Source of the DNA: Rhizophagus irregularis
Taxonomy: Eukaryota
Assembly: GCF_026210795.1 (NCBI RefSeq)
Contig: NC_089430.1
Coordinates: 4,836,001 to 4,900,000, forward strand
Reading direction: 5' to 3'
Length of the DNA stretch: 64,000 nucleotides
Below are positions 197 through 55,377 of the stretch, one piece after another. A program made the position numbers and the translations under genes. The notes under the pieces are model-generated. The model saw only the letters and a program-made list of their open reading frames with translations, was not told where the DNA came from and did not search any database. The first letter of the stretch is position 1; the number at the start of each line of letters is the position of its first letter.

Positions 197-1648
197 ATGT
201 CTCAGCTTCCTGATGATTGCTTGAACGAGATTTTTGAACACTTAGAAGATGACAAATTTACTTTAAATTCATGCATATTAGTTAATCGTTATTGGTGTGA
301 TGCATCTGTGAGAATTTATTGGAGGAATGTTCAGAATTATAGTACTTCGAATTTTAGTACTTTAATTGCTTGCCTTCCAAAAGAATCAAAAGAAATTTTA
401 TATAATAATGGAATTGTTATTTCAACCCCAACTTTAAAATCTCCCATTTTCAATTATGCATCATTTTGTAAAATTCTATCAGTTAATCAAGTTTATAACA
501 AAATTGATAAACTTCTTAAAAATCAACAAAATATTTCACCACAAAATATTAAAAATTATAAACTTATAGTAGCGCAAGAAATATTTCAAATGTTCATGAA
601 AAAAATCTCTTCTTTAAAAAGTTTAACTTTTTATCAATTTCCAAATATGACTTTTAACTTTTATCCTGGAGCAAAAGATTGTTTTAAAAAACTCACAATA
701 TTATGTTGTAGTTCAGCGATTCCAACAGAATTATTTTATCAATTATCTCAAACATGTTATAATATACAATCACTTAATATAGAATTTGATGCAATTATTT
801 CTAATGGAATAGAAGATTTAATTTCTGTTCAAAGAAATTTGAAACTATTTGATATGACACTTTGTCGTGATCTTACATTTGGTGGACCGACAAGTATAAT
901 TTTATCATCATTAATGTCAAAAATTCCTAATACTTTAATTAAATTAAATGTTTATGGAAGAGATAATTATTTTTTATTATCATCTATCGCAAATTTCTCA
1001 AATTTACAAGAACTTAATTTATCATTTGATCATGATGAATATTTTATGAAGTTAGAATATGCCATTTTTCCACAATTAAAAGTTTTAATAATTCCAAAAG
1101 AATATCCAAGAAATGAGTCATTAATAAAATTCTTAGAAATTAATGGGAAAAATTTAAAAGAAATTTATATAAGTGAGGTTACAGGATATAATGATAATTC
1201 ATTAAATTTAGCTATTGCTAAGTTTTGTCCAAATCTTAAAAAACTTTCTGTTGGAATTGAATGTAAAGAATTGGAAACATTAAAAATAATTTTTAATAAT
1301 TGTAAAAATTTAGAAAGTATTAAAATTTGGTGTGGATGGAAATTCTTGAGCGAAAAAGAAGCGTTGGAAACATTTGCGAAATATTCACAAAATATTCATG
1401 AATTGATATTATATCATCAATTTAAAGAACGATTCGAATTACTTCCAGAAGAATTAGAATCTTTTTTTATAAAATGGATAGATCTTAAACCACAAAAATC
1501 ATTTTCATTAGTAGTTGTTAATTACGATGCAAATAGTTTAAATACAAATGATGAAAATATTGAAATAATTAACAAATATATTAAATTAGGCGTTATTAAG
1601 AAATTTAAAGTTACAGATTTCAAGGATAAAGAATATAATATATTTTAG
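197..1648 (+). CDS. F-box / leucine-rich-repeat (RNI-like) protein, 483 aa, single exon
   Basis: N-terminal F-box motif (LPDDCLNEIFEHL...LNSCILVNRYWC) followed by LxxLxL repeats (LKSLTF, LQELNL, LKVLII, CPNLKKL, CKNLESI); long uninterrupted ORF. Confidence 0.85.
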   Translation: MSQLPDDCLNEIFEHLEDDKFTLNSCILVNRYWCDASVRIYWRNVQNYSTSNFSTLIACLPKESKEILYNNGIVISTPTLKSPIFNYASFCKILSVNQVYNKIDKLLKNQQNISPQNIKNYKLIVAQEIFQMFMKKISSLKSLTFYQFPNMTFNFYPGAKDCFKKLTILCCSSAIPTELFYQLSQTCYNIQSLNIEFDAIISNGIEDLISVQRNLKLFDMTLCRDLTFGGPTSIILSSLMSKIPNTLIKLNVYGRDNYFLLSSIANFSNLQELNLSFDHDEYFMKLEYAIFPQLKVLIIPKEYPRNESLIKFLEINGKNLKEIYISEVTGYNDNSLNLAIAKFCPNLKKLSVGIECKELETLKIIFNNCKNLESIKIWCGWKFLSEKEALETFAKYSQNIHELILYHQFKERFELLPEELESFFIKWIDLKPQKSFSLVVVNYDANSLNTNDENIEIINKYIKLGVIKKFKVTDFKDKEYNIF

Positions 1649-7952: not shown

Positions 7953-10900
7953 TTAATTATTAATCGTATTAATATTCAATTGAGACACATCAATATGTAA
8001 AGATTCTATTTAATAAGTAAAAATTTATTAGTATCTTTAAAACTAATTTACGTTTTAAATAATGAAATTATTAAACGGTACCTGAAAATTCCTTGCTAAT
8101 TATATTATCATTTTGATCATAATAACCGTCGGAATTTTTTGGTTCTGGAAGTTTATCAGGATTAAGTAGTTTACTTGTGTAAGTAGCTTCTGAATGTGTA
8201 TTATATGATATTCCTAAATTATTTGAAGTTATATCGCTATTTGGTGAATTATTGTTGATTTCATCTGCTTCCTTAATTTGTGCTTGTAATTCTATTGTTT
8301 GCTTATCATTTGGTTCATATTGCCATCTAAGTAAAATTTTGTATATGTCTTCTGCTATTGGTCGGTTTAACGGATTGGAATCTAAGCATCTTTTAATTAA
8401 GTGCACAATTAATTGTGGTACTTTAATGTTAAACATTGGTCTAAGTCCTTTACAAATTTTGATTCTTAAAATAATATCATGGCTTAAATCATGATATGGT
8501 GGCAATCCAGAAATTACTTCATACATTATTATGCCAAAACTATAAATATCAGCAGCCTTGGAATAATTTTCTCCTCTTAAAATTTCAGGAGCTACATAAG
8601 GTAAAACACCATATGTCTCATTTTTCGTATTTTCTGATGTATAAAAATTTGCAGGCTTACATAATCCCATATCAGTTATGGCCGTTTTATTTTTAAACTT
8701 TAATATATTTCCAATATGTAAATCTTGATGAATTAATCCCTTTTCATGAATACATTTAAGTCCAATAATAGTATAATGTAAATATTTAAACATTTCAATC
8801 CAATTAAGCCTATTATATCCTTTATCTAAATAATTTCGTAAACTTCCATCTTCTGCATATTCTAGGACAATTATATAATTTTTCGTTTTTGGATCCTGAG
8901 TTATTCCATAGAATCTGACAATTGCATTATTATCCATTTTCACTTTATTATGCTGCATGATCTATGATGTAAATACAAAATATATTAATAAAACCAATAA
9001 TCTAGGTATTATGACCAAAAATAATAAATAAATTAATCAAATTATACCTCATTCATAAATCCTAATGTAACATTTTTTGAATTGTCTAAACTTTTCAGAG
9101 CTACAAATATATCTTTATTATATCTTTTCCAATTTTGGTTACTATCATCATCCCAATCAGTTAGATAACCACCAATCCAATTTGCTCTATACACTTTGCC
9201 AAACCCACCTTTTGCAATATATATAATATCATAAAAACTATCATAAGGTATCCATTCTAAAGCATTTGTAAGTAGTTCAATTTTATTATGTATTGATAGC
9301 TGACTGTCTTGAATAAATATATCAATATTATCATTACCACTAGTCCAATTTTCAAAATTTTGTTGAAAATGCATTGCATAACATGTATAATTACATTTTT
9401 CACATATAGTATTATTCAAAACTATCATATAACTTTTTGTTTCTGGATCTTGAGTTATTCCAAAAGGTGTATTGACCTACAAATACAAATATATTAGTAG
9501 AAATTAAAAGCTTCAAAATTTTATTAGTATTTAATTTATTATATATACCTTATCCATAATAAATTTTATTCTAATATTTTTTAAATTACTTAAACTTTTC
9601 AAGATTACACCTTTACTTCCATATCTTTTCCAATTTTTATTTTCATTATCCCAATACTCTAATGTTCCATCAATCCAATTTGCTTTATGCACTTTGCCAA
9701 ACTTATTTATTGTAATATCACACAGTCTATCATAAGGTATCCATTCTAATGCATTTGATATTTCGCTATCTTTATGAGCTGATAACTGAGTATCTTGAAT
9801 AAATTTATCAATATCATTATTACCACTAGTCCAATCTATGAATTTATGTTGAAAGTGTATTGTGTTACATATACTATTACACTCTTTACATTTATTATTC
9901 AAAACCATCATATAATTTTTTGATTCTGGATCTTGAGTTATTCCATAAAATTCATATTCTATTTTAATCTACAAAATGTATTAAATAATACTTAATAAAA
10001 ATTATAATATTTATATTTTACTAAATAAGTTTACCATACCTTGTTTGTAAATTCTATTGTAATATTTTCTGAATTATTTAAACTCTTTAAATTCACAAAT
10101 ATATAACGACCTTCTCTTTCCCAATCTTGATTTTTACTATTCCAATTAGTTATATATCCATCAATCCAATTTGCTCTATACACTTTGCTAAATTCATCAT
10201 CTGCAATATATTTAATATTATATAATCTATCATAAGGTATCCATTCTAACACTTCTTTTACATCTTTATGAGATGATAGTTGAGTATTTTGAATAAGTTT
10301 ATCAACATCATTACTACCACTAGTCCAATCTATGAATTTATACTGAAAGTATATTGTATTACATATACTATTACACTTTTTACAATTATAATTCAAAACC
10401 ATAATGTAATCTTTTGTTTCTGGATCTTGAGTTATTTCAAAAGGTATATTGATCTACAAGTACAAATATATTAGTAAAATTAAAAACTTCAAAATCTTAT
10501 TGGTATTTAATTTATTATACCTCATTTGTAAATTTTATTGTAATATTTTTTGAATTACATAGACTTTTCAGAATTACATCTCCACTTTCACATCTCATCC
10601 AATTTTGATTTGTATTATTCAATTTGTATATTTCTCCATCAATCCAATTTGCTTTATATACTTTACTAAACTTATTTTTTGAAATATCATTCAATCTATC
10701 ATAAGGCATCTGTTCTAATGCATGTTCTTCCAAGTTATAAGTATGTTCTGATAACTCAGTATCTTGAATAAATTTATCAATATCATCATTATCACTAGCC
10801 CAATTTTCAAAATTTTGTTGAAAATGTATTGAATTGCATAGTGCATTACACTTTTTACATTTATTATTCAAAACCATCATATAATTTTTTGTTTCTGGAT

Positions 10901-13900
10901 CTCGAGTTATTCCATAAAATTCATATTCTATTTTAATCTACAAAATGTATTAAATAATACTTAGTAAATTAAAATATTTAAAAATTTTGCTATATAAGTT
11001 TACCATACCTTATTCATAAATTTTATTGTCATATTTTTTGAATTATTTAAACTCTTCAAATTCACAAACATATTACAACCTTCTCTTTTCCAATTTTGAT
11101 ATTTATAATCCCAACCACTTATATTTCCATCAATCCAATTTGATCTATACATTTTGCAAAATTCAACATCTGCAATATATTCAATATTATATAGTCTATC
11201 ATAAGGTATCCATTCTAACATTTCTTTTAAATCTTTATGAGCTGATAACTGAGTATTTTGAATAAATTTATCAATATCATTATTACCACTAGTCCAATCT
11301 ATGAATTTATGTTGAAAGTATATTGCATTACACATTTTACTATCATTACACTTTTCACATTTATTATTCAAAATCATTAAATAACTTTTCGTTTCTGGAT
11401 CTTGAGTTATTCCATAAATTTCATATTTTATTTTAATCTATAAATGCAATAATACTTAGTAGAATTAAAATATTCAAATTTTGCTAAATAAATTTATCAT
11501 ACCTTGTTTGTAAATTCTATTGTAATATTTTCTGAATTATTTAAACTCTTTAAATTCACAAACATATTATGACCTTTTCTTTTCCAATCTTGATTTTTAC
11601 TATTCCAATTAGTTATATATCCATCAATCCAATTTGCTCTATACACTTTGCCAACTTCATCACCTGCAATACTATATTTAATATTATATAATCTATCATA
11701 AGGTATCCATTCTAATACTTCTTTTAAATCATTATGAGATAATAACTGAGTATTTTGAATAAATTTATCAATATCATCATTACCACTAGCCCAATTTATG
11801 AATTTATGTTGAAAGTATATTGTTTTACATATACTATTATTACACTCTTTACATTTATTATTGAAAACCATTACATATTTTTTTGTTTCTGGATCTTGAG
11901 TTATTCCATAAATTTCATATTTTATTTTAATCTACAAAATGTATTAAATACTTAATAAAAATTATAATATTTAAAATTTTACTAAATAAGTTTATCATAC
12001 CTTGTTTGTAAATTCTATTGTAATATTTTCTGAATTATTTAAACTCTTTAAATTCACAAACATATTATGACCTTCTCTTTTCCAATCTTGATATTCAATA
12101 TTCCGATAACTAAAAATATTATATTCCCGATCATCTATATCACTTATTATATATCCATCAATCCAATTTGCTCTATACACTTTGCCAAATTCATCTTCTG
12201 CAATATATTTAATATTATATAATCTATCATAAGGTATCCATTCTAACACTTCTTTTACATCTTTATGAGATGATAGTTGAGTATTTTGAATAAATTTATC
12301 AACATCATTATTACCACTAGTCCAATCTATGAATTTATATTGAAAGTGTATTGTATTACATATACCATTGCACTTTTTACAATTATAATCCAAAACCTTA
12401 ATATAACTTTTTGTTTCTGGATCTTGAGTTATTCCAAAAGGTATATTGACCTATAAATACAAATATGTTAATAGAAATTAAAAACTTCAAAATTTTATTG
12501 GTATTAAATTTATTAATTATTATACCTCATTTGTAAATTCTATTGCAATGTTTTTTAAATTACTTAAACGTTTCAGAATTACACTTTTAATTCCATATCT
12601 TTTCCAATTTTTATTTTCATAATCCCAACTCTCTATTTTTCCATCAATCCAAATTGCTTTATGCACTTTACCAAACTTATCTTTTGCAAAATACTCCAGT
12701 TTATCATAAGGTATCCATTCTAATGCATTTGATATTTCACTGTCTTTATGAGATGATAACTGAGTATCTTGAATAAATTTATCAATATCATTATTACCAC
12801 TAGTCCAATCTATGAATTTATGTTGAAAGTATATTGTATTACACATTTTACTATTACACTTTTCACATTTATTATTCAAAATCATTAAATAATTTTTCGT
12901 TTCTGGATCTTGGGTTATTCCATAAAATTCATATTCTATTTTAATCTATAAATGTAATAATACTTAGTAGAAATTAAAATAATCAGAATTTTGCTAAATA
13001 AATTTATCATACCTTGTTTGTAAATTCTATTGTAATATTTTCTGAATTATTTAAACTCTTTAAATTCACAAACATATTATGACCTTTTCTTTTCCAATCT
13101 TGATTTTTACTATTCCAATTAGTTATATATCCATCAATCCAATTTGCTCTATACACTTTGGCAAATTCATCATCTGCAATATATTTAATATTATATAATC
13201 TATCATAAGGTATCCATTCTAACACTTCTTTTAAATCTTTATGAGATGATATCTGAATATCTTGAATAAATTCATCAATATCATCATTACCACTGGTCCA
13301 ATTTTCAAAATTTTGTTGAAAATATATTGAATTGCATATTTTATTACACTTTTTACATTTTTCGCATTCATTTTTCAAAACTATCATATAATTATCTGTT
13401 TCTGGATCTTGAGTTATTCCAAAAGGTATATTGACCTATAAATACAAATATATTAGTAGAAATTAAAAAATTTCAAAATTTTATTGGTATTAAATTTATT
13501 ATACCTCATTTGTAAATTTTGTTCTAATATTTTTTAAATTACTTGAACTTTTTAGAATTACATCCTTACTTCTATATCTTATCCAATTGTTATTTTTATT
13601 ATCCCAATATTTTATTTCTCCATCGATCCAATTTGCTTTATACACTTTACCAAACTTATTTTTTGCAAAATCATCCAGTCTATCATAAGGTATCCATTCT
13701 AATGCATTTGATATTTCACTATCTTTATGAGCTGATAACTGAGTATCTTGAATAAATTTATCAATATCATTATTACCACTAGTCCAATCTATAAATTTAT
13801 GTTGAAAATGAATTGCATTACATATTTCATTACACGTTTTACATTTATAATTCAAAGCTATCATATAATTTTTTGTTTCTGGATCCTGAGTTATTCCAAG

Positions 13901-14383
13901 AGGTATACTGATCTACAAATACAAATATATTAGTAAAAATTAAAAACAATAAAATTATATTGTATAATATATTTATTATACCTTATTTATGAATCCTGAT
14001 ATAAAATTATTTGAAGTACTTAAACTTTTCAGAACAATAAATGCATTATGACCTCCTCTTTCCCAATTTTTATTTTTATCATCCCAATAACATATATTTC
14101 CATCAATCCAATTTGCTCTATACATTTCACCAAGTTCATCTTTTGCAATATACTTAATATCATATAATCTATCATAAGGTATCCATTCCAATGCTTCTTC
14201 TATATTATCATGAGCTAATAACTGAGTATTTTGAATAAATTTATCAATATTATCATTACTACTAGTCCAATTTTTGAAATTTCGCTGAAAATGTATTGCG
14301 TAACATGTATTATTACATTTTTTACATCTCTCGACATGTGATAACGTAGTTATCTTCTTAATACTTTTAATAAAAGAATCCAT
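7953..14383 (-). CDS. Protein kinase (TKL-like) with 11 tandem N-lobe modules; 13 exons, ~1,860 aa if all exons are included
   Basis: Exons 14383-13982, 13912-13505, 13435-13013, 12945-12526, 12450-12001, 11931-11503, 11437-11009, 10937-10521, 10453-10040, 9968-9549, 9476-9048, 8961-8082, 8005-7953. All introns GT-AG; the first 11 are phase 0 and 65-86 nt; the frame stays open. Motifs KGGFGKVY, VALK, HQDLHIGN, DMG, APE, DIYSFG. The terminal exon is less certain. Confidence 0.85.
9048..14383 (-). repeat. Tandem array of 11 exon+intron units (~490 bp), each encoding CxxC..C..F + WTSGNxDIDKFIQ + LEWIPYD + kinase beta1-alphaC
   Basis: Eleven similar ORFs in the track (9042-14383) with ~490-bp period. 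Confidence 0.95.
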
Positions 14384-21314: not shown

Positions 21315-24202
21315 ATGGAATTGAAGTTAATTAATCATGATATTTCTGCTATTAAAAATAATATAAAATGTTTTAAGAGTAGTGATTTATTTATTCATCT
21401 ATCAACACATAGTAAATATGAAGCAATATTTAGAAGAAAATTGGAATGGATTCCTTATAATAAATTTTGTGATGTTAAATATATTGTAGTAGACATGTTT
21501 AAAAAAATGTATAGAGCAAAGTGGATTAATAAAAGAAACAGTGTGTTTCTAAAAAGTTTAGATGATCCAAATAACGTTACACCGGAGTTCGTAACAAGTG
21601 TATGTTTGAATTTATTATTTAATGAAATTTTTTCAAACAATCTTATTTATATTAACGTAATTTATTATTATCATAGATTACAGTACTACATGAAATTTAT
21701 GGAATAACTCAAGTCCCAAAAACAAAAACTTTTATGTTAGTTTTGAATGAAATGTGTGAAAAATGTAATATTATATGTAGTGCGATGCATTATCAACAAA
21801 ATTTTGAAAATTGGACTAGCGGTAATAATGATATTGACAAATATATTCAAAATACGCAGCTATTAGCACATGTTGGTCATAAAAATTCATTGGAATGGAT
21901 ACCTTATGATAGATTCTATGATTTTAAATATGTTGCAGAAGGCAAGTTTGGCAAGACGTATAAAGCAAATTGGACTGATGGAAATATAAGATATTGGTAT
22001 AGTAATAATTGGATAAGAGAAAATCCAAATATGCTTGTATTTCTGAAAAGCTTGAAAAATTTAAAAGATATTACATTGGAACTTAATGAGGTATAATATG
22101 AATTTGTATTATAATATATAATTGAGAACTCAATTTCACTAAATACTAATGTATTGTTTTTGTAGATTACGGTACCTCATAAATTCTATGGAATAACTCA
22201 AGATCCAAAAACAAATACTTATATGGCAGTTTTGAGTGAAACATGCGAAAATTGTGATAGTATATGTAATGCAATACATTTTCAACGAAATTTTGAAAAT
22301 TGGACTAGCGGTAATAAAAATATTGATAAACTTATTCAAGACACCCAGCTATCAGTACATAGTAAATATGCATCAGTAATTAAAAAAATATTAGAATGGG
22401 TACCTTATAATAGACTTTATAATATTAAATATATCTCAGAAAGCAATTATAAAGCAACTTGGATTGATGGATGTATAGATAAATGGGATCATCATAATAA
22501 TAAAACTTGGAAAAGAAAAGAACAGAATTTGATTGTATTTCTGAAAAGTTTAGATAATCCAAATAATATTACGTCAGAATACATAAATGAGGTATATTAA
22601 ATTTATTATTTAATGTATGAAATTTTTTTTTTAATTTTGATTTTTACTATGTTTATATTTGTAGATTTCAAAACATTATGAAGTTTACGGAATAACTCAA
22701 GATCCAGAAACAAAGAATTATATGATGATTTATAATGAAGTATGTGGAAAATGTAAATATATATGTAGTGCAATACATTTTCAACGAAATTTTAAAAATT
22801 GGACTAGTGGTAACATAAATGTTGATAAATTTATTCAAGATATTCAGTTGTCAGTTCATAAAGACACTAATATAAGAAACGTATTAGAATGGATACCTTA
22901 TGATAAATTTAACAATATTAAATACATTGGGAAAGGTGGATTTGCTAATGTGTATAGTGCAGAGTGGGCAATAAATGGTCAACATAATAAATTGGTCGCT
23001 CTAAAAAGTTTAAATAATTCAAAAAATATTACATTAGAATTTATGAATGAGGTATGATTATTTTATTTTATTTATTAAGAATTTCGAAATTTTGCTTTTT
23101 TGTAATATTTATTATATTTATTAATATTTCTTTTATATATATATATAGATTGCTTTACATAACAAAATAGGAAATTCTTTTTCTATTATTGATTTTCATG
23201 GTATAACTCAAGATCCAAAAACAAAAAATTATATGATGGTTTTGGAATATGCAAAGGAAGGAAGTTTACGAAATTATTTAGATAAAAATTATAATGAATT
23301 AAGTTGGGATGATAAATTACTTCATTTATATTATATTTCATCTGGACTTGTATCTATTCATAAAAATGGTTTAGTTCATCGAGATTTTCATATAAGCAAC
23401 ATATTGGTATCCAACTACACAAAAATAACTGATATGGGATTATGTAAACCTGTAAATTATGATGCATCAGAAAATACAAAAAAATGTATATATGGTGTTT
23501 TGCCTTATATTGCTCCTGAGATTTTACAAGGTCAAAGTTATACCAAAGCTGCGGATATTTATAGTTTTGGTATTATTATGTATGAAGTAATTTCTGGGTT
23601 ACCACCATATCATGATGTAAGTCATGATAAAAATTTAGCGATAAAAATTTGTCAAGGGCTTAGACCAAAGTTTAACATTAAGGTACCACAATTAATCGTG
23701 CATTTAATTAAAAAATGCTTAGAAGCAAATCCATTAAATCGACCAACAGCAGATGAAATTGAAAAAATTTTATGTAGTTGGCGTGATAATCGTGTAGTAG
23801 AATTACAAAAACAAATTAAAGAAGCAGAAGAAATGAATAATAAATTACTAGCTGGTGGTATACATTCAACCAATTTAAGAGTATCATATAGGACACATTC
23901 TGAAGCTATTTATACAAGTAGATTACTTAATTTTGATAATCTTCCCAAACCAAAAAATTCTGATTATTATTATGAAAAGAAGGATACTAGTATGAATAGC
24001 ATTGAATCTTCAGGTACTGTGCGTTTAATAAAAAAAAAAAAATATTTAAAACAATTATAATAAATGCTAACTAAAACTTTATTTATTTTAATTAGCGCCA
24101 TTGTCTTTACAAATTGATGTTTCAAAATTGAATATTAACTACAATAATAATCCCGCCAAATCGAAAAATTCTGGTGCTTATTATAAACAAAGGATATTAT
24201 AA
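21315..24202 (+). CDS. Protein kinase (TKL-like) with 4 tandem N-lobe modules (the first is partial)
   Basis: Exons 21315-21599, 21677-22090, 22166-22591, 22665-23051, 23149-24013, 24096-24202, GT-AG, in frame. Motifs GKGGFANVY, VALK, HRDFHISN, DMG, APE. The 3' end is uncertain: a repeated tail exon lies near 24294. Confidence 0.82.
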
Positions 24203-26303
24203 ATAATACGAGACCTTCAGGTATTGATAAAAAATGTTTAAAATAATTACAAAATAAAAAATTTACTGATAAGACATTTTATTTATTAAATAGTGTCATT
24301 ATTACCTTTACAAATTAATGTCTCTTAAATTAAATATTGGTTGGAATGGTAAATTTTAACTTTTATTATATTAACACTTGATATTATTAATTCTTAAATT
24401 CAATAATCTCTTTAATTTAGGTCAAAATAGCAAATTTAAGGATTTAAGGCCAAATATAAGTCTAGGACTAATCATAAATAAGTGATTTCCATTGGTCATA
24501 GAAATTGAAAGAATTTTTAATTTGTTGGATCGAATAATGTGTAAATATTTTTTCGCCATTATAAAATATAATTACGTTTGGAGTTCACTATTCCTAAAAA
24601 CAAAGTGAAAGTGTACGAGAAATATTTTTTAAGACAAAACCATTTAAGAAAGTAAAGAAGGGCGGGAAAAAATAGTGATATTCTAGAAAAAAAACTTTGA
24701 ATAGAAATTACAATATTTCCTTTTTATTCCAGTTTTTAAAATGATAATACCGATAAGAATATGATAGATTATCAAATTTAATATTTATTGATTAAATAAA
24801 TCCACTAAACTTTTAATTATACTAATATAGACTTTATTGCGCACATAATTTGATCCTAATACATAAAAAATTTATGTTAAATGAAAAAAGTTTTTAATAA
24901 TAATATTATACATCTCATGAAAATATCGTTTATTAATTGCAAGAGCGAAATATAAAGTACAGGACGTGTGAAGATTAATGATTCCGGCCGATATCTATAA
25001 AATTGTAGGCCATTCTAGAAGTTGGAGTTAATCGGTCAATCAGTTAAGGTTAATTGGTTTTTGGTCAGTTCCAACCTCTAGGTCATTTTTATACAAATTG
25101 TATTCTTTATCTGTTATTAAATTATACAGTATCAAATTTTAATTTTAATTATTTTCATTTCTAATATTTCTACTAATACACTGCAAAAAAATTTAATAAA
25201 ACGTTCAGTTTATAAAGTTTATAACAACGCTCCATGACTCAGCAACTAACCCTGTAAAAAATTTTATCCGTTATTTCTGTAAAAACTCCATAAAAATGAG
25301 CCTTTCACGGATCCATTCATGGAAATTATAAATAATTCGATAAATCCGTATTAATTCCGGAATATGAGCCTTTTACGGAAAAAAGATGGAATATAAAAAA
25401 CGGATCGACTTTTTTATAGAGTCAGATTTTTAATATGACTGACAATATAATGGCGAAAATAATTCTTCATCATAAATGACATAAATGACTTTGTGATACG
25501 ATTTCATACCTTTTTATCCGAGATTTAATTCATCGATCGAAAAAACTCTATATCTCGAAAGAAAATGACTTTTTAACTAAATTATGTCTTGAAGTGAAAA
25601 TAAAATTCTAGAAAATCAGAGTCATGTTTTATTATTTCATCCCGTACAATTAAGATCATTTCAGCTAAACCCCTGATTCTAGGCAAATTCTATCACACTA
25701 TCATTTGATCATTCCGGGCACTTCTTTTTCCCTACTACAAAAGTGATATATAAACTGATTATCATTTTTAGTCCTTTATACTATTTTAAGTTTTTTAAAT
25801 TACTATCGAATTAAAAAAAATATGCAAAACCTTAACGTTAAATAAAAAAAAAAGATATATATATTTAACATTATTGTAATGACAATTTCCTTTTATTTAA
25901 AGAATTCGAAAGGATAAAATAGTTAAAATTAAATAAAAAGAATATATTTTTTTGGTTAAATAGTATAATTTAAATAATTCACAAATTAAATAGTAATTTT
26001 AGTTTATCTCATCACTTTTTTAGTTCAAAAGTTTAATTAAAAATAACTAAAATCTCAATCAAAATTCAACTACTAAAATTTACTCATTTTCTACGCATCT
26101 AGACCAGAATCATGTAATGCCGCCTGGCATTATCCAAAAAAGGGAGATCTACACGTTACTTGGTTACTCTACGCAAAACTCCGTATTTGTGTATTTCTTG
26201 GGTCTAAACTGGAAATGATTTCTATTTGATCACAAGGTGGTACAATGCAGTTGCATTTTACATAAGGTTTCAGCCATTAAAATTGGTAACCAATTTTTTA
26301 ACA

Positions 26304-29300
26304 ATGTTAAAAGAAACGAAAGAAACCGACCCTAAAGAATCAAATTATTATGTCGATTGGTTAGACAAATCGATTGCAAATGAATACTTCAATTATTATG
26401 AATTTTCGGAATTTAAAAATTTAGAACTTATAGGAAGTGGTTCATATGGAAGTGTCATTCGTGCTAATTGGAAAAATATTGAAAATTTTTTCGCTTTAAA
26501 AACTTTTAAAAATTATGACAATATAATGTTAAAAGAACTTGTTAATGAGGTAATTAATCTCGGCTATCTTCATAAATTTTACAAATTGAAATTAAAATAT
26601 GATTTCTTTTCCAGATAAAATTACAAAAAAGAGTTGATTTTCACGAGAATATTATACGGTTTTATGGCATCACGAAAGTGGAAGCTGGTAAGATTCAAGT
26701 GCTAGCATGTGTTACATTAACGTTTTGGTTTAACACACTCTTTTTTATCTAGAAAAATATTCGTTAGTCTTAGAATACGCCGACAATGGTACACTAAAAA
26801 CTTATTTAAATAATCATTTTAATGGACTTAATTGGATTGATAAATATCAGTTGGCATTTCAACTAGCTAATGCAGTAGAATGTTTACATGATTGTAATAT
26901 TATACATCGTGATCTGGTAATAACAAATTACTAACTTATAATTTGCTATTTTAATTATAATCGTATCGTACTAAGGTTTTCATTTATAATAATAGCATGC
27001 AGATAATATACTTGTACATGGGAAAAAGATAAAGTTAACAGACTTTGGTTTATCAAAAAAAATTTCTGAAGCATCAAGCAAAACATCAAAAATATTTGGT
27101 GTAATACCTTTTATCGATTCAAAAAAATTATATGATCAAGGTTACAAATTAAACAAGAAATCTGATGTATATAGCGTCGGAGTTTTGATGTGGCAAATTT
27201 CAAGTGGCCGTCAACCTTTTTCTGATTATAATTATGATGCAATTTTATCCTTGTCCATAGCAAATGGCAAGCGAGAAGAAATTATTGACGGTACTCCTAA
27301 AGAATATTGTGACTTATTTGCAGGTAATGAATATGATTATAAATATTTTTAATTCATTAATTCATTTATTAATGTGATTTATTTTAACCAGAATGTTGGA
27401 AAGATGATCCAGATGAACGTCCAAATATACAAAATGTCGTTTCTATTCTTTATGAAATAATATTTCCCAAACAAGAAGGTATAACTATTACTGATAATGT
27501 TAATAAAGAAAAAGAAAATAACCAACTGAAAAAATTTGAACCAATTTCTAAATCAATCGAAACCATGGAATTAAATAATGAATTGATATCATATAATGGA
27601 TTAAATATAAGTTGTGAAAATAATTTATCAAGTTCATCAATTCAAACAAATATATCAAAAATTTCATATGGGTCAACATTTGATAAGACTAATAATATAA
27701 TTGTTCAAAAGTTAATTAAGGTTATAAATAGAAAACATGATAAGGAAAGTATTAATTTTCGAGATTTTCAACAATTTATCAATCAACAAGTATTTGAATT
27801 AAATCTAAGTTCAAATAATCTTATTAAATGGCTAACTAAACAAGTAAATCCACAATATAATTATTTACTTGGACTACTTTATTATTATAACATCTGTACA
27901 GAAGAAAATAGTACAAAGCATTGGAATTATTCTTGAAAGCATCTAAAGACAATTATTTGACTGCACAAGTTTATCTTGGAAAATGTTATAATGATGGATA
28001 TGGAATTAAATGTAATAAAAATTTGGCATTTGATTGGTATCGAAAATCTGCGGAGAATGACAGTATAATTGGACAATTTTATTTGGGAAATTGTTATGAA
28101 TTTGGCATTGGAACTGCAAAAGATTTTATAAAATCAGTACATTGGTATAAAAAAGCGGCAAAAAGAGGAAATACAAGTGCAAAACTAAATCTTGCAAACT
28201 GTTATAGATTAGGAAAAGGTGTTGAAAAAGATGAAATTAAAGCGTTCATGTATTATAAAATTTTAGCCAAACAAGAAATTTCAGATGCTCAATGTCAACT
28301 GGGAGATTGTTATTATAATGGGATTGGAACGAAAATAGATGAAATACAAGCTAAATGTTGGTATGAAAAGGCAACAAAAAATGGAAACATTGTTGCAAAA
28401 GATAATCTTTTAAAGTACTATGATAAAAGACAAAAGTTAAAAATAAGTAATATTAAGGAAATTAAATTTCAAAAAAGATTAAGTTTTAAAGGTTTCAAAT
28501 ACTTTATGACTAAATTTACAAAAATTAATCAAGAAAATATATTTAGCATAGTTCAAATAGTGGCAGAAAATAAAAATAAAGGGTTGCCATTTGATTTAAT
28601 TAATCACTATAAAAAAGATAAAGGTGTAAGAAAAGATGGAAGAAAAGCTTTTGAATTCCATAGACTTTTAGCTGAACAAGGATATATAAATGCAAAATTT
28701 CAACTTGGATATTGTTATGATGAAGGAATTGGAATTGATATTAGTAAAGTAAAAGCATTTGAATTATATAAAGTAGCAGCAGAAAAAGGAAATAATGAAG
28801 CACAATATAATTTGAGTATTTTATATGAATTAGGAGAAGGAGTTGATAAAAATGAGGAAAAAGCATTTGAAATAATTAAAAAATTAGCAGAAAAAGGAGA
28901 TCCGGATGCAAATTATAAACTTGCTTACTACTATAATAAAGGAATCGGAACTGAAATTAATAAATCAAAAGCATATGAATCATATAATATAGCAGCTGAA
29001 ACAGGAAACAATGAAGCACGATTTAATTTAGCCATATTATATCAATTTGGAGTTAGTGATGATAAGAAGAAAGCATTTAAATTAATGAAAGATTTAGCGG
29101 AAAAAGATGATGTAAATGCTCAATTCAAACTTGGATATTATTATGATGAAGGAATTGGAACTAAAATTAATAAATCAAAGGCATTTGAATTATATAATAT
29201 AGCAGCTGAAAAGGGGAGCAATGAAGCACGATTTAATTTATTTAATTTAGCCATATTATATCAGCTTGGAGATGGAGTTAATGAAGATAAGAAGAAAGCA

Positions 29301-30542
29301 TTTGAATTAATGAAAGGTTTAGCAAAAAAAGATGATGTAAATGCTCAATTCAAACTTGGATATTATTATAATGAAGGAATTGGTACTGAAATTAATAAAT
29401 CAAAAGCGTTTGAATTATATAGTATAGCAGCTGAAAAAGGCATTAAGGCACAATATAATTTGGCCATTTTATATCAATATGGAGAAGGTATTAATAAAGA
29501 TGAAAAGAAAGCGTTTGAATTAATAGAAAACCTAGCCGCCGAAAATGATTTAGATGCTCAATTACAGCTTGGATATTATTATTATGAAGGAATTGGAACT
29601 GAAATTAATAAATCAAAAGCATTTGAATTGTCTAAAGTAGCAGCAGAAAAAGGAAATACTGATGCACAATTTATTTTAGGTACATTATATCAAATTGGAG
29701 AAGGAGTTGCTAAAAATGAGAAAAAAGCATTTGAATTAATAAAAGATTTAGCTGAAACAGATTATTCAGATGCTCAATTTCAACTTGGATATTATTATAA
29801 CGAAGGAATTGGGATCAAAAGAGATCTTAAAAATTCCTTTTACTGGCACCAAAAAGCAGCAGAAAATGGCAATAAAACCGCACAGTATGATATAGGTGAA
29901 AGCTATGAATTAGGAATTGGGACTGATAAAGATTTAATTAAAGCATTTTATTTTTATGCAAAATCGGCTGAAAATGGAGATATTTGTGCAAAATTTCAAC
30001 TTGGATACTGCTATATAAATGGTATTGGAACGGAAATTAATAAAGTAAAAGGATTTGAATTATATAATGAGGCGGCTGGCACTAATATCCAAATTAACCT
30101 TATTGAAAATGATGAAGAAATAGTAAATGATTTAGACAAAGTTAATTATTAGTATCACAAAGCTGCAGAAAATGACAGTAAACTTGCATTATATAAATTA
30201 GGTGAATTTTATGAAGCGGGCATAGGTGTTTGTAAAAATGAAACACGGGCTTTTGAATTCTATAAGGAATCAGCTGATCAAGGGTATATAGATGCTCAAT
30301 ACAAAGTTGGGTATATTTATAATTATGGAACCCAAATTGATATTGATAAAGAAAAAGCATTTAATCACATTAAGATTGCTGCAAAAGGAGGAAATGTTGA
30401 TGCACAATACAGCCTCGCATCTTTATATGAACAAGGAGTAGGAACTGAAAAAAATACCGAGAATGCCATTTATTGGTACAAGAAAGCCGCAGAAAATGGA
30501 TGCCAGGAAGCTGAAAAAGGTTTAAACTTATTATTAAAATAA
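26304..30542 (+). pseudogene. Kinase + Sel1-like-repeat protein, disrupted by a frameshift (~27917) and a premature TAG (30150-30152)
   Basis: Kinase exons ~26304-26549, 26615-26686, 26753-26915, 26996-27323, then 27392 onward: GSGSYG, FALK, HRDL|HADN, DFG, DVYSVG. Many Sel1 repeats follow (AQFQLGYYYxEGIGT). The frame continues after the TAG (expected TGG in YWYHKAAE) to TAA at 30540-30542. Confidence 0.8.
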
Positions 30543-36890: not shown

Positions 36891-38260
36891 CTAAATAATC
36901 TTTGATTTGCCTGTAATATAAGAGATAAAATGAGTTAACTATTAAAATTATTTCTTAAAAAATAAATTGAAATATATACGTACCAACATTATCTTTAATT
37001 GTTAATTGAGAAATATCAATTTGTAAAGATTCTATTATTTTAATGAAATAAGATATATTAGTATTTTTCACATTTAATTCATACAAAATTATTACAGTAT
37101 TTACCTGAAAAATTTTCACTAATTATATTATCATTTTGTTCATCATAATAATCATCTGAATTTTTTGGTACTGAAAGATTATTAAAACTAAGTAATCTAC
37201 TTGTATAAACAGCTTTGGAATGTGTTTTGTATGATAAATTAATTAAAGGTATACTGCCAGTTGGTAGATTATTGTTGATTTCTTCTGCTTCCCTAATTTG
37301 TTTTTGTAATGCTGTTAATTCTGTTTCATTATCAATATGTCCAGATTCTAAATCACCGGATTCATAATACCAATGATATAAAACTTTTTCGACTTCATTT
37401 GCCGTAGGTCGATTTAATGGATTTGCATCCAAGCATCTTTTGATTAAATTCACAATTAATTGAGGTACTTTAATATTAATAAATCTTGGTCTAAGTCCTT
37501 GACAAATTTTTATTGCTAAATTTTTGTCATGGCTTACATCATGGTATGGAGGTAATCCAGAAATTACTTCATACATAATTATACCAAAACTATAAATATC
37601 AGCAGCTTTAGTATAATTTTGTCCTCTTAAAACTTCAGGAGCAATATAAGGTAAAACACCATATATACTATTTTTTGTATTTTCCGATGCATTATAATCT
37701 GCAGGTTTACATAATCCCATATCAGTTACTGTAACTTGAGATCCAAAACTAAGTATATTTCCAATATGTAAATCTCGATGAATTAGTTCTTTTTCATGAA
37801 TACTCTTAAGTCCTAGTGTAATATGCCATAAATTTACTAGCTTAGCACTCCAAGTTAATTCATAACGATTTTTATCCAAATAAGTTCTTAAACTTCCATT
37901 CTCTGCATATTCCAAAACCATCATGTAATTTTTTGTTTCTGGGTCATGTGTAATTCCATAAACTTTAGCAACCGAAATTTCTTCATCTCCAATAGTTTTA
38001 CAATGCATTGTTATCTAAATATACATTTAAAAAATCCGTTAGTAAAAATCGCATTTAAAATTAGAAATTAAGTATTACCTCATTAATGTAACGTTTTCTG
38101 AATTATTTAGACTTTCCAGTGCTACAAATGACGTCGTTTCCAATTTTCATTTATGTTATCCCAACCTCCATCAGTCCATTTGCTCTATACACTTTTCCAA
38201 AACCGCCTTTTGCAACATATTCAATATCACATAATTTTATTTTAAGGTATCCACCCTAAT
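36891..38260 (-). pseudogene. Kinase paralog: open C-lobe exon (38014-37105) plus two small tail exons; the N-lobe exon (~38260-38079) is degraded
   Basis: The C-lobe has HRDLHIGN, DMG, APE and DIYSFG with no stops. The upstream exon has WIP-stop, frameshifts around KGGFGKVYRA, and VALE in place of VALK. Confidence 0.75.
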
Positions 38261-40011
38261 ATTTGCTAATAAAGCTGATCAAAATTGATGCTGATCATAT
38301 AACACAAAATTATTTCTCATTTTTATAAATCGAATGATATGATTGATATTACAAAAATATCAAAAAATATCAAAAATGAATTTATTAACAATATTATACA
38401 GTAATAGGCAATTTGTTATCATTTTATTTAATGAAAAATTATAACCAGTCCCAGTCCTAGTCCTCAAATCTTGGATCGAAGACCGTAAAGATTGCCTTTC
38501 TAGGAACGATCTAAATTGGTTTTTAATCGGTTAGTTTTTTTTTATTTTTAGGCCATTTTTACACAACTCGTATACTTTATTAAATTATATCAAACAATTT
38601 AATTATTTTTTAATATATTCAGTTCTTAAAATTCAAAACATATTTGATGTAAAAATAAAGTTTGTGACACATACCCTTCTATTTTGTATTCTTGTGATAC
38701 GATTTATATTTTGTTTTTAGATTTTAATTCAACGATCAAATTAAACTTTTTATCTCGAAAGAAAATATTTTTTTAACTAAACTATATTTTGAAAATTTTT
38801 TAGAAATCCTGAACCACATTTTATTTTCATCATTATATTCCTTACTAATGTACGATCTTATACAGTATAACCTTAGTAATATTATTTCAATTAAAATCCC
38901 AGATTAATATTATATATATTTAAATAACTGTCATTTTGATAAAAGCTTATGGTTTGTTTAAAAATTATTAAAACCTTTTTACATAAAGAGGATTATTCCT
39001 TCATTTTTTATAACCAAAAAATCTCGTATTTTCTTTTTTTTGAGATCTCGAAATTCTATGTTTTCTAAAAAAAAAAAAAGTGTCATATAAACTTTATTAA
39101 AAAAATAATCATCTGTGTCTGTTTTAATACTAGTTTAATAGTGTTTTAATTCCTTAAAAAATGATTTAATTTATTACAATCAAACAAAAATAGAAAACAC
39201 AAATCACAAAACATTTTTATTTAAAAGGATATTTTATAATTATTTATAAAAGAAATGAAAAGTGTAAATTATTAAAGATTGAAAATTTTTTAAATTTTAT
39301 GATTTGAATTTAATCGAGATCTTAATGATTTATTGATTAAATTTTTTAAACCCGTAATAAAGGATAATGGATATTTTTATTGATACTTTAAATCTGCCAG
39401 AAATTTGTCTTTTAACCAATCAAAAAAAATATCATATTTAGTTTATTAAAATATTCTAATAAAAAAAAAAGAAACAAAAATTTATGCAGTAATTTTAAGT
39501 TGTTACTCAATAACGAGTACTAAAGTGCGAATAATGACGAACTCGATAAATGATTGGTTCTGTCACTACACGATTATCTTTTATTACGTGGTCAATAATA
39601 AACTACAATGGCATTATTAACAATGGTTTCCATTCTTTGGTATTATTTGATAAGAAATAAGAAAATTTATTCAAGCAAAATTTGTTAAATGCAATTTAAT
39701 AAAGAATACTATAAAAGAAATAGAAGTATAATCAGAAAATAACAACAACAATAATAATGTGAAATCTAAATAAATAATATATTAATAAAATAAAAAGTAA
39801 TGAACAAAATTTTTGTAAATAAACAAAAAGAATTGTATTTAATTAAAAAAATGTGTCACGAACATTACTATAACTATTATGACATGCAACAACTATGAAT
39901 TATTAAATTTCAAGTATTACACGAATACTACTTATCAAGTACAGAATAATGCGAAATAAAAAAAAAGTGTTAAGCAAAAAATTACGGACAAGAACAAACT
40001 ATTTCTAGATG

Positions 40012-42072: not shown

Positions 42073-43258
42073 TAAAGCTCTGAACGGTTCCGGTTTGAAC
42101 CGGAAACTGATCCGGAACCGGCAAAAAATTCGGTTCAGTTCTCGGTTCGGTTTTGGACTTGGAACCGTCCGGTTCAGTTCGGTTCTATCCGAAATTAAGA
42201 AAAAATGCGAAAAAATGAATAACGACTATCCAGTGATCGTACAAGGACGAGCCATAGCTCGTTGGAATCCTCTCATCGAGACGCGTCGAATGGTGGTAAA
42301 ATCAAGTCTATAGCATCGATAGATCACGAGATAGCACATGGTGAGTGTTTCTTAAAAAATTTGCATTAGAAAACTATCCAATGATGCTAGAGACATGAAT
42401 TTACCACCATTCGACGCATCTCGACGAGACGAATCTAATGAGCTATAATTCGTCTTTTTACAATTACTGGATAGTCTTGTATTCGTTTTTTCGCATTTTT
42501 TTTAAATTTTCGAACGTCAAAAATTAAAATTCGATACAAGCGATTAAACGCCATCTATTGATCACATAAAGACGAATTTTAGCTCATTGGATTCGTCTCA
42601 CTGAGACGAGTCGAATGGTGGTAAAATCAAGTCACTAGCATCGATAGATCGTTTTCTAATGCGAATTGTTTAAGAAACACTCACCATGGGCTATCTCACG
42701 ATCTATCGATGCTAGAGACTTGATTTTACCACCATTCGACTCGTCTCAGTGAGACGAATCCAATGAGCTAAAATTCGTCTTTATGTGATCAATAGATGGC
42801 GTTTAATCGCTTGTATCGGAATTTTAATTTTTGACGTTCGAAAATTTAAAAAAAAATGCGAAAAAACGAATACACGACTATCCAGTGATTGTAAAAAGAC
42901 GAATTATAGCTCATTAGATTCGTCTCGTCGAGATGCGTCGAATGGTGGTAAATTCATGTCTCTAGCATCAATGGATCGTTTTCTAATGCAAATTTTTTAA
43001 GAAACACTCACCATGTTCTATCTCGTGATCTATCGATGCTAGAGACTTGAATTTACCACCATTCGACGCGTCTCGATGAGAGGATTCCAACGAGCTATGG
43101 CTCGTCCTTGTACGATCACTGGATTGTCATATATTCGTTTTTTCGCATTTTTTCTTAATTTCGGATAGAACTGAACCGAACTGGACGGTTCCATTTCGGT
43201 TTTCGGTTCTACCCAAACCGCAAAAAAACCGAACCGAACCAACCCGTTTGGAGCTTTA
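42073..43258. mobile_element. Non-autonomous hAT element containing a ~1-kb palindrome
   Basis: 8-bp TSD cgggtaat (42065-42072, 43259-43266); TIR taaagctctgaacgg / ccgtttggagcttta; cggtt/aaccg subterminal repeats; inverted arms ~42161-42651 and ~42699-43192. Confidence 0.9.
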
Positions 43259-43470
43259 CGGGTAATACCCAATATGGAGTTGGGTAGTCGGGTAATACTT
43301 TTTTTGATTTGGGTATGACCCAGATCCAGACACCCCAGCCAAATGATCAACATAGTTTCTAAGCTAAGTGGGCGTGCACTACATCATAGCTTATAAACTG
43401 CCCATGGGCCAGATTAGCCCACGAGATCTGATTGGTCCAAACAACTTACCAACATTTAATTACAAATAAG

Positions 43471-45191: not shown

Positions 45192-46241
45192 CAAATAAGG
45201 CAATTTTATAACTTTTGACCGGATATTTACTTATAATATAAACTCATGGTCAAGGATTGCATTAATGTACATTTTGTACCACCTTGTAACTATAAAAAAG
45301 GCAAAAATTTTTCAAGGTTACACATTAATTTGGCCAGAATTAAGATAATTTCGCCCAGCAAAATTTGGCCGGAATTATAAAACGGACATAAATGTCCGTT
45401 TGCAAATTTGGCCAGAATTATAAAAACGGACATAAATTTGGCCAGCATTATGAATGTAAATATTTTAACTAATTATTCAATAATCATAAATAAATAAATT
45501 ATATTTTATTGGCTTTGTCTCATCAAAATATGCTAAATAGTGGTAATTTCATATTTCTATTATCAATAAATAAAAGTTATTAGCATTTATAAATATTTAA
45601 AAATATAAAAAATTATTTCAAAAAAATGTTAATATGATTTTATTATTTATTTATTAATCCTAAAGGTATAAAACTGCTACCATTTAAAATATCTCAAAAA
45701 AACAATCCAACAAGCTATATATATTTTATCTTTCTATTTGTAATTACTTGATTTCAAGCTAAAGCAGTTTAGCTTTTAGCAATTTAATGTAAATATTTAA
45801 TCAGATAACACTAGTCGAAATAAGGCAAATTGGAAATAAGGCAAATCGTCCTTATTTTGGCTAAATTTCGGCTAATAATTAACGATCGTCTGTATATCAG
45901 GTGACATTCGGCATAGCCGATTTCCGATTTCACTAGTCGAAAAAGGCCGGCCTATATTCAATTAAAAATTCGACCATGATCTACGATTAGACATTGGTCG
46001 AATAGTCTAATTAAACGTCATGCATTACGCGTATCAAAGTTTAAAAAAGGATCTTTTTTAAACTTTCCCCTTTCATCCCTTCCTTTCACGCACTTCACTT
46101 CATCCTTACTTTCCCTGTCCTTTCGTCCTTCCCCTCCCTTCCCCTATTGTCCTTTCCTTTCCCTTTCGTCCTTTCCTTGCTTCCCCTTTCTCTCTCCCCC
46201 TTTTCTCACACCTTTCTTCCGCCTTTTTTTCTTGGAAGTAA

Positions 46242-52300: not shown

Positions 52301-52900
52301 AGAAATAGCAACACGAAAATAAAAATAATTTATTATTTATATCATTCTAATATTATAAATAGAGCTCCGAATGGGTCAGGTTAGGTCAGGTTTAAGGTTG
52401 CTTGCCGAAACCTGTTTGGCCTAATGCCGAAAGGTGAAACCTCTTATATAGTGCCGAAACGCCGAAACGCCAAAACGCCGAAACCTGTCAAAATTGCGAA
52501 ACTGCCGAAACATGCCGAAACCTCTATAATAGGTTTCTCTGTAGTTTCGGCATAGTTGATCATAAGATTTGCATATAGTTACGCCAAGTTACACCAATTA
52601 ATAATATAATTTAGATGATCAAATAATCTACAAATAAAAGATTAAACTTCAATATTTTACTGTCGTCTTAGTTCTTTTAAGCTTTATCTAGTGTTAGAAT
52701 TTTCATTTCTAACTCCCATATTAATATTATGATATTACACGTTTTTACAGTTTTTTTTTAAGGGGCTTATATTCATTAAAGGAAAATGCGTAACATGCAT
52801 TTAATAAACCCAATTCCGTCATCTCCTTTAACACTGAACTAAAGTTTCTTTTACTTTCTTCCATTTTCTTAATAATAATATTAATAATAAACTGTTTCAA

Positions 52901-55201: not shown

Positions 55202-55377
55202 TAATAATGAGAAATAATTACAATAGTTAATCCAATGAGAATTAATTCTAATATCATGTGATTTAAATAATGATACTATTTAGGAAATAAATGATGTAAT
55301 TATGCAGGGCAAAATATTCACGATCAAAGTCCAGTTAACATATAATTATGCAGGCAATGCAGGCAATTGTAATTTTA

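What the first reader, a model, noticed from the sequence alone, without database searches (positions are those of the whole stretch)
7953..14383. Kinase with 11 tandem N-lobe modules on symmetric phase-0 exons in front of a single C-lobe
Seen: each ~490-bp unit encodes a Cys cluster, WTSGN/LEWIPYD and kinase strands beta1-beta3 plus alphaC. The start of the next exon adds beta4-beta5 (xGITQDPETKNYMMVL) and then restarts at the Cys cluster instead of continuing into EYA and the C-lobe. All 11 modules are open and all their introns are phase 0. Only the module next to the C-lobe keeps the Gly loop (KGGFGKV). The other ten have DDEF, NKFG or KDELG there but keep the beta3 LK. Divergence is concentrated in the segment between WIDG and VxLK. 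Established: duplicated kinase domains (e.g. JAK pseudokinases, cereal tandem kinases) are normally whole bilobal domains. Inference: these half-kinase repeats have been repurposed as a variable binding or decoy array, as in immune or nonself receptors. Symmetric exons would also allow any subset to be skipped, so a different N-lobe could be joined to the C-lobe.
Basis: partly seen in the sequence, partly recalled or inferred. Interest (0 to 1): 0.85.

Follow-up and report, generated by a model that had tools for sequence, protein, structure and literature searches.

The report
Kinase with stacked half-kinase decoys
A root-symbiotic fungus has a spliced gene in which the front half of a kinase is repeated eleven times, ten copies having lost the ATP-gripping loop while one surface hairpin changes fast; such arrays arose separately in three kinase lineages of these fungi and likely act as bait that switches the single kinase predicted to be active.

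Summary
Confirmed. The minus strand holds one open 13-exon gene (1857 aa): 11 modules (Cys knuckle, helical cap, kinase N-lobe) and one C-lobe. Relatives' modules fold like kinase N-lobes; spliced RNA contigs join modules 8-9, 10-11 and 11 to the C-lobe. It belongs to a Rhizophagus family with 3-11 modules. Inner modules lose the Gly loop (kept in 10 of 531, against 79 of 80 catalytic N-lobes), the beta3 Ala and half of helix C, but conserve knuckle and cap. A codon test finds positive selection only in the beta2-beta3 hairpin. Two more array families (Rhizophagus; Acaulospora) arose from other kinases; one origin is rejected. The lobe-swap idea is not supported: the phase-0 intron is the parent kinase's own, the duplicated unit straddles it, and every skip product would lack the Gly loop. 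Best reading (0.5): a multivalent decoy/sensor array, a many-copy version of the partial kinase duplication of wheat RWT4/WTK3. No ligand or activity is shown. Nine literature searches and three look-ups in this scan's notes found no earlier description.

The parts
13982..14383 (-). Exon 1: ATG, short basic amphipathic helix, module 1 (Cys knuckle, cap, beta1-beta3, first half of helix C)
13505..13912 (-). Exon 2: beta4-beta5 of module 1, core of module 2 (type X: short beta1, helix-C Glu kept)
13013..13435 (-). Exon 3: module 3 (type Y: acidic loop in place of the Gly loop, Lys in place of the helix-C Glu)
13118..13123 (-). In module 3, the two hairpin codons (between the conserved Ile and Trp after WIDG) that the codon model flags as positively selected across modules
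   Evidence: position read
12526..12945 (-). Exon 4: module 4 (type X)
12001..12450 (-). Exon 5: module 5 (type Y) with a 12-residue in-frame insertion in the hairpin
11503..11931 (-). Exon 6: module 6 (type Y); its last 148 nt are identical to those of exon 3
11009..11437 (-). Exon 7: module 7 (type Y)
10521..10937 (-). Exon 8: module 8 (divergent type X); spliced to exon 9 in contigs of runs X17 and X19
10040..10453 (-). Exon 9: module 9 (type Y)
9549..9968 (-). Exon 10: module 10 (type X); spliced to exon 11 in run X17
9048..9476 (-). Exon 11: catalytic N-lobe (Gly loop, A-L-K, helix-C Glu); spliced to exon 12 in runs X17 and X20
8082..8961 (-). Exon 12: rest of helix C, beta4-beta5, hinge, C-lobe (HQD, DMG, APE) and tail; Pfam PF07714 119 bits, PF00069 117 bits
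7953..8005 (-). Exon 13: last 17 residues and stop, after a 76-nt phase-1 intron; joint seen in run X19 (contig with 17 differences on the exon-13 side)
21315..24015 (+). Paralogue B: one degenerate module without Cys knuckle, two full inner modules, catalytic N-lobe and C-lobe, same phase-0 introns; 3' end not modelled
37082..38420 (-). Paralogue C: open C-lobe exon behind an N-lobe broken by stops and frameshifts (likely pseudogene; upstream limit approximate)

Best explanation
The gene encodes ten catalytically stripped kinase N-lobe modules in a row ahead of one complete TKL-type kinase predicted to be active, and the array likely works as a multivalent bait that binds foreign or variable kinase-targeting proteins and thereby likely switches the kinase. 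Shown: the anatomy; splicing of modules 8-9, 10-11 and 11 to the C-lobe; loss of the Gly loop, beta3 Ala and half of helix C in inner modules; equal conservation of knuckle, cap and pre-beta1 Trp motif in inner and catalytic modules; three separate origins of the layout. Predicted: each module folds as an N-lobe whose beta4-beta5 comes from the next exon; three Cys and a His bind zinc. Statistical: positive selection at 2-4 sites of the beta2-beta3 hairpin. Inferred and untested: the hairpin face is the binding surface; the ligand is a nonself protein (endobacterium, virus, mycoparasite, plant or another fungal genotype); binding clusters or unlatches the kinase; unequal crossing-over and gene conversion renew the repertoire.
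For: Gly loop in 79 of 80 catalytic and 10 of 531 inner modules. With one module per protein (80 v 80), mean entropy inner v catalytic is equal for knuckle (1.41 v 1.55), cap (1.01 v 1.07), Trp motif (0.74 v 0.75) and hairpin (1.61 v 1.56), and higher for beta1-Gly-beta2 (1.70 v 0.73) and beta3-helix C (1.61 v 0.63). Models of relatives: pLDDT 80 and 85, pTM 0.66 and 0.65; the modules-only model matches kinase N-lobes in all 50 listed rows of a search of 48,161 chains, best Z 7.0, rmsd 3.2, 82 aligned, and in Foldseek. M2a v M1a: p=7e-4 for the ten modules; beta2-to-helix-C half p=1.3e-4 (17 modules), p=0.013 in this gene alone, p=0.044 in 8 other modules; knuckle-cap half p=0.22; 0 of 20 and 0 of 36 null simulations passed the 5% cut. 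Family II inner modules keep the Gly loop in 0 of 61, the eight most distant arrays in 0 of 33; one clade of inner modules is rejected, p-AU 1.7e-93, 38 rows. The closest kinase P0020 (84% C-lobe, 90% exon 11) has 5 inner modules, not 10. Precedent: the partial kinase duplication of wheat RWT4/WTK3 binds its effector (passages).
Against: No ligand, binding or kinase activity was shown. The hairpin is about as variable in catalytic N-lobes as in inner ones, so its variability is not special to the array. Overall omega among modules is high but below 1 (median 0.73; M0 0.62-0.75), which relaxed constraint also gives. The codon test is my own implementation, on 31-111 codons, without multinucleotide changes; the sub-regions were chosen after the first result; the C-lobe control (p=0.42) had only 4 sequences. 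Structural Z-scores are under 8, and gene A itself was not folded. No NLR partner was seen among the window's long frames. 68 of 80 family C-lobes are RD kinases, whereas immune-receptor kinases are often non-RD (recalled). A paralogue in the window has decayed.
Confidence: 0.5

Rival explanations
1. The modules form an avidity scaffold or spacer for the fungus's own partners: they repeat the outer face of the N-lobe to bind an activator, substrate or another kinase, or fold back to hold the kinase off.
For: Inner modules conserve knuckle, cap and Trp motif as well as catalytic ones; pTM 0.65-0.66 for multi-module models hints at defined packing; 27 of 88 family N-termini fit a loose basic amphipathic pattern that could place the array at a membrane.
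Against: Module number runs from 3 to 11 and differs between sister kinases, a poor ruler; positive selection in the hairpin is not expected for a fixed self partner.
Confidence: 0.22
2. The arrays are tolerated by-products of unequal crossing-over in a repeat-rich, kinase-amplifying genome compartment; selection only keeps the frame open and the modules folded so that the terminal kinase is made.
For: Omega 0.62-0.75; decayed paralogue C and degenerate first module of B; kinases are highly amplified, methylated and near transposons in R. irregularis (PMC8647823, passages); hAT/BED transposons lie in the window. An open frame upstream of a needed kinase explains the lack of stops.
Against: The same features are lost and kept in three independent lineages; family I inner modules are mostly an old lineage shared across species (13 label changes v 62.7 shuffled, 499 modules); localized omega>1; family II-type modules occur moved behind an unrelated kinase in P0125, a database gene model not checked here.
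Confidence: 0.22
3. Exon skipping joins different N-lobes to the one C-lobe and yields kinases or pseudokinases with different properties.
For: All introns are phase 0, so any skip stays in frame, and exon 12 supplies the rest of helix C and beta4-beta5; modules 2, 4 and 8 keep the beta3 Lys and helix-C Glu; one joint in X19 was placed from exon 3 to exon 10.
Against: The intron is ancestral; hybrids lack the Gly loop and beta3 Ala; the only joint to exon 12 is from exon 11; the exon 3-10 joint lies in sequence shared by exons 3, 5, 6, 9 (60 nt) and 4, 8, 10 (32 nt), so it cannot be assigned, and it would only shorten the array.
Confidence: 0.05

Closest known systems
Wheat RWT4/WTK3 tandem kinase with its partial kinase duplication (KDup/PKF) (bioRxiv 10.1101/2024.04.30.591956 and 10.1101/2024.08.30.610185; passages read)
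   Same: A degenerate copy of the front part of the protein's own kinase sits ahead of it, has lost catalytic features and evolves fast (reported dN/dS 0.96); there it binds the effector directly.
   Different: One fragment against up to ten; RWT4 has two whole kinase domains and an NLR partner; the fungal module keeps the beta3 Lys, carries a Cys knuckle and cap, and spans beta1-beta5; different kingdom, independent origin; binding is not shown here.
Cereal tandem kinase Sr62TK with its N-lobe beta-finger (bioRxiv 10.1101/2024.08.30.610287; passages read)
   Same: An extended, variable N-lobe hairpin is the predicted recognition surface.
   Different: There the last two N-lobe strands are extended in a whole kinase; here the hairpin lies between beta2 and beta3 and is repeated on lobes without a C-lobe.
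Expanded tyrosine-kinase-like (PF07714) genes of Rhizophagus irregularis (PMC6123716, PMC8647823; passages with 'kinase' read)
   Same: The catalytic domain is a member; database entries name these proteins only 'kinase-like domain-containing' or by yeast best hits.
   Different: The passages seen mention no N-lobe arrays; Pfam has no model for the module (0 of 11 exons reach a curated cut-off).
JAK pseudokinase-kinase pairs (recalled; JAK2/TYK2 chains are among the fold matches)
   Same: A dead kinase copy lies N-terminal to an active kinase.
   Different: JAK pseudokinases are whole bilobal domains that can bind ATP; these modules have no C-lobe.

Membership tests
Protein kinase, TK/TKL group (catalytic domain, exons 11-12) | Pfam PF07714/PF00069 above cut-off and bilobal kinase fold | tested here: met
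   119 and 117 bits; relative P0119 aligns to ErbB4 at Z 28.3, rmsd 2.7, 276 residues
Protein kinase, TK/TKL group (catalytic domain, exons 11-12) | Catalytic motifs: Gly loop, beta3 Lys, helix-C Glu, catalytic Asp and Asn, DxG, APE | tested here: met
   All present in the sequence; HRD reads HQD
Protein kinase, TK/TKL group (catalytic domain, exons 11-12) | Phosphotransfer activity and Ser/Thr or Tyr specificity | not testable with these tools
   Needs an assay
Kinase N-lobe fold (inner modules) | Five-stranded sheet in beta1-beta5 order with a helix after beta3 | tested here: met
   Modules-only model of relative P0107, pLDDT 84.8; residues 53-153 align to RIP3 15-98, Z 6.8, rmsd 2.5, 76 aligned; all 50 listed rows are kinase chains, best Z 7.0; Z under 8, so it rests on the unanimity of rows and on sequence likeness to module 11
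Tandem kinase proteins (cereal TKPs) | Two or more whole kinase or pseudokinase domains in one chain | tested here: not met
   One C-lobe in gene A and in all 80 family proteins that have one
Tandem kinase proteins (cereal TKPs) | Integrated partial kinase duplication derived from the protein's own kinase | tested here: met
   Inner modules group with the catalytic N-lobes of their own family (SH-aLRT 96-100)
Tandem kinase proteins (cereal TKPs) | Direct binding of a pathogen effector and signalling through an NLR | not testable with these tools
   No ligand known; no whole genome held
Pseudokinase (JAK JH2 type) | Whole bilobal kinase fold without catalysis | tested here: not met
   Inner modules run from beta5 straight into the next Cys knuckle
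Zinc knuckle (three Cys and one His) | Four conserved ligands that meet around a zinc ion | tested here: inconclusive
   CxxC-C-His pattern in 475 of 557 modules that start with Cys; single-domain relatives have four Cys; geometry not seen
Cassette-exon repertoires (Dscam or protocadherin type, recalled) | Alternative choice of one variable exon joined to constant exons | tested here: inconclusive
   Three unambiguous consecutive joints among module exons, none alternative to exon 12, one unassignable; low-depth contigs only

The most novel reading that the evidence does not exclude
Arbuscular mycorrhizal fungi have at least three times turned the kinase N-lobe into a free-standing repeat domain and use arrays of it as a recombining receptor repertoire: each lobe is a bait for a different kinase-targeting foreign protein, with the beta2-beta3 hairpin as the variable site, wired to one active kinase. 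That would be an intracellular immune receptor class of these fungi.
Probability: 0.3. Interest if true: 0.88.

Novelty: new variant of a known kind. Interest (0 to 1): 0.68.

Why it matters
Kinase N-lobes are not usually seen as independent, repeatable domains. Here they occur in arrays of up to ten in well over a hundred database proteins from Rhizophagus and Acaulospora, all unrecognised by Pfam. Why these fungi amplified their kinases and how they tell self from nonself or sense endobacteria, viruses and hosts are open questions. The arrays give a concrete candidate with a located variable surface, and single 140-residue modules can be expressed, folded and used as baits. If the decoy reading holds, the one-copy trick of wheat RWT4 was reached independently and multiplied in fungi.

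Tried and rejected
Assembly artefact: rejected; exons are 71-94% identical in DNA, and intron-spanning contigs without differences occur in runs X8 and X14, but no contig spans the whole array. Dead repeats: rejected. No whole genome is held, so gene number and partners in this isolate are unknown. No RNA holder listed on record; X17, X19 and X20 are treated as RNA because their contigs skip GT-AG introns, X8 as DNA because its contigs read through introns. No assignable joint was seen for exons 1-8 upstream of the 8-9 joint; one search showed 15 of 73 joints, all 6, one of them (9947/11244) also in the DNA run and so a repeat artefact. The 9968/10040 and 9968/13013 joints cannot be assigned. 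Pfam on module exons: nothing at cut-off. PDB by sequence: only E 0.9-1.9, 8 of 10 rows kinases. Atlas: module clusters are unnamed Mucoromycota kinases; no usable hit for knuckle and cap alone; the wide fold search barely tested the knuckle. The complex predictor was not available, so docking of a module on the kinase is untested. The AU test on 107 rows did not finish and was run on 38 rows. No transmembrane segment (highest 19-residue hydropathy 1.09). Literature searches (listings and abstract starts only) showed no description of N-lobe arrays; subscription papers such as the first Rhizophagus genome paper are not in the library, one recalled paper id was not held, and no supplements were read, which may hold domain tables that bear on novelty.
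Full report
Observation. The region is AT-rich, intron-containing DNA of an arbuscular mycorrhizal fungus; all 120 listed best relatives are named Rhizophagus. On the minus strand, 11 exons of 402-450 nt are open, multiples of three and separated by GT-AG phase-0 introns of 65-86 nt. With the C-lobe exon (8961-8082) and a last exon (8005-7953) they make one 1857-aa frame. Exons are 71-94% identical in DNA and 48-85% in protein. They fall into two types, X (2, 4, 8, 10) and Y (3, 5, 6, 7, 9). Evolving a module neutrally along the module tree left all ten free of stops in 0 of 300 runs.

What a module is. Each has a CxxC-C knuckle, a helical cap ending in a conserved His, the Trp motif before beta1, beta1-beta3 with a long hairpin between beta2 and beta3, a short helix C, and beta4-beta5 from the next exon. 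Gene A could not be folded as a spliced chain, so two database relatives were. P0119 (three modules and a C-lobe) gave pLDDT 80.1, pTM 0.66, and its catalytic domain matches TK/TKL kinases (ErbB4 Z 28.3). P0107 (modules only) gave pLDDT 84.8. Its best Foldseek matches are EGFR, JAK3, HER2 and RIPK2 over about 110 columns (5 at E<=0.001). In a search of 48,161 chains all 50 listed rows are kinase chains, best Z 7.0, none at 8. The aligned range runs across the exon boundary to beta5, so the lobe is completed in normal order. Zinc binding is inferred from the CxxC-C-His pattern in 475 of 557 modules.

Family. One module finds 471 longer proteins at E<=1e-10 among 544 candidates. Of the 120 listed plus gene A, 80 have 3-11 modules and a single terminal C-lobe; 41 have no C-lobe and may be partial models. 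The Gly loop is present in 79 of 80 catalytic and 10 of 531 inner modules; the second half of helix C is a gap in over 90% of inner modules; 68 of 80 C-lobes have HRD, 3 HQD as here. With one module per protein, inner and catalytic modules are equally conserved in knuckle, cap, Trp motif and hairpin, and inner ones are relaxed in the parts that face ATP and the C-lobe. P0020 is sister to gene A in the C-lobe tree (100/99), 84% identical in the C-lobe exon and 90% in exon 11, yet has five inner modules; its best match to an inner exon of gene A listed is 67%. Arrays thus turn over faster than their kinases.

Repeated origin. A divergent soil locus (L006) led to a second Rhizophagus family with four-Cys or no knuckles and its own C-lobe clade; 0 of 61 inner and 8 of 11 catalytic modules have the Gly loop. 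A profile search found 3147 clusters at E<=0.001; among 140 new representatives 5 of 349 inner and 27 of 37 catalytic modules have it. Of 20 looked up, 5 are Acaulospora, and one each Ambispora, Racocetra and Diversispora. Acaulospora inner modules group with Acaulospora catalytic lobes (SH-aLRT 100), as those of families I and II do with theirs (97, 96). One clade of inner modules is rejected on a 38-row subsample, p-AU 1.7e-93. Within family I most inner modules form an old lineage, with some exceptions.

Selection. Pairwise omega has a median of 0.73 over 55 module pairs, against 0.32-0.40 for three C-lobe pairs and 0.33 for one catalytic N-lobe pair. My own M1a/M2a code favours a class with omega near 4-5 for the ten inner modules (p=7e-4) and for 18 modules including paralogue B and soil loci (p=3e-9). 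Splitting afterwards, the signal is in the half from beta2 to helix C (17 modules without exon 5, p=1.3e-4; 9 from gene A, p=0.013; 8 others, p=0.044), not in knuckle and cap (p=0.22). It holds on the 31 hairpin codons under two frequency models (15 modules, p=0.003). The flagged sites are the two residues before the hairpin Trp and one or two near its tip; a knuckle site flagged lies beside indels and is not trusted. Null simulations gave at most 3.3 (20 runs) and 5.7 with gene conversion (36 runs), against 17.9 observed. Multinucleotide changes were not modelled, and the hairpin is as variable in catalytic lobes.

Splicing. Contigs of three runs in two studies skip the predicted introns: exon 11-12 in X17 (no differences) and X20, exon 10-11 in X17, exon 8-9 in X17 and X19, exon 12-13 in X19. 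Two further joints at 9968 fall in sequence shared by several exons and cannot be assigned; one of them was placed from exon 3 to exon 10, so shortening of the array by skipping is not excluded. Symmetric exons need no special explanation: single-domain relatives break at the same place in helix C (paralogue C), and module tail, intron and next-exon head travel together (introns 5 and 9 97%, 3 and 6 95% identical). A skip to exon 12 would give a lobe without Gly loop and beta3 Ala in all ten cases.

Mechanism. Shown: a spliced, open, selected array of stripped N-lobes on one intact kinase, evolved three times. Inferred: the array displays many versions of the N-lobe's outer face, the hairpin varies under conflict, and ligand binding switches the kinase. 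I give this 0.5, a scaffold for self partners 0.22, tolerated duplication 0.22 and lobe swapping 0.05.

Comparison. It would work like the partial kinase duplication of wheat RWT4/WTK3, which binds the effector and evolves fast (passages), and recalls the variable N-lobe finger of Sr62TK (passages). It is not a tandem kinase or a JAK-type pseudokinase pair, since there is one C-lobe. The kinase expansion of R. irregularis is known (passages). Nine searches showed no description of the arrays, within a library that lacks most subscription papers. Three look-ups in this scan's notes found no such array on other DNA. Motif names (Gly loop, A-x-K, HRD, non-RD) are from general kinase knowledge.

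Verdict. Real, expressed at least in its distal part, family-wide and apparently undescribed as a repeat domain; the function is a reasoned hypothesis. Interest 0.68.

Noticed in passing
window 21315-24015 (+): Paralogue B with four N-lobe units; the first lacks the Cys knuckle, and its catalytic N-lobe lacks most of the beta2-beta3 hairpin.
   Followed up: partly
window 37082-38420 (-): Paralogue C: open C-lobe exon behind an N-lobe with stops and frameshifts; likely pseudogene.
   Followed up: partly
window 26208-30542 (+): Kinase fragment followed by a long Sel1-repeat region (13 matched stretches, 424 bits), the common Rhizophagus kinase-Sel1 layout.
   Followed up: no
window 197-1648 (+): F-box protein of about 483 aa.
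   Followed up: no
window 52838-63476 (+): Several hAT-type transposase frames with BED fingers, and a Myb/SANT-like frame at 55868-56236.
   Followed up: no
window 42383-48952: Cluster of tandem repeats with periods 327, 50, about 140 and 52; the 50-bp unit (27 copies) contains a short inverted repeat, and the roughly 140-bp unit reads like mini-exons with splice-like ends.
   Followed up: no
window 14383-14350 (-): Basic amphipathic N-terminal helix (highest hydrophobic moment in the protein); 27 of 88 family N-termini fit a loose version, some begin Met-Gly; could be a membrane anchor.
   Followed up: partly
protein P0125: Three family II-type inner modules lie behind an unrelated kinase and before Sel1 repeats, as if moved as a domain; the gene model was not checked.
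   Followed up: partly
proteins P0139, P0140, P0146: Rhizophagus proteins with two or three whole kinase domains in tandem, true fungal tandem kinases.
   Followed up: no
proteins P0124, P0129, P0132, P0136: Family II arrays whose modules appear to have lost the Cys knuckle (seen in the printed P0124 and P0129), so it is dispensable in some arrays.
   Followed up: partly
L006 1-816: Soil locus with two divergent modules about 41% identical to this family, one without Gly loop; its close relatives were not found.
   Followed up: partly
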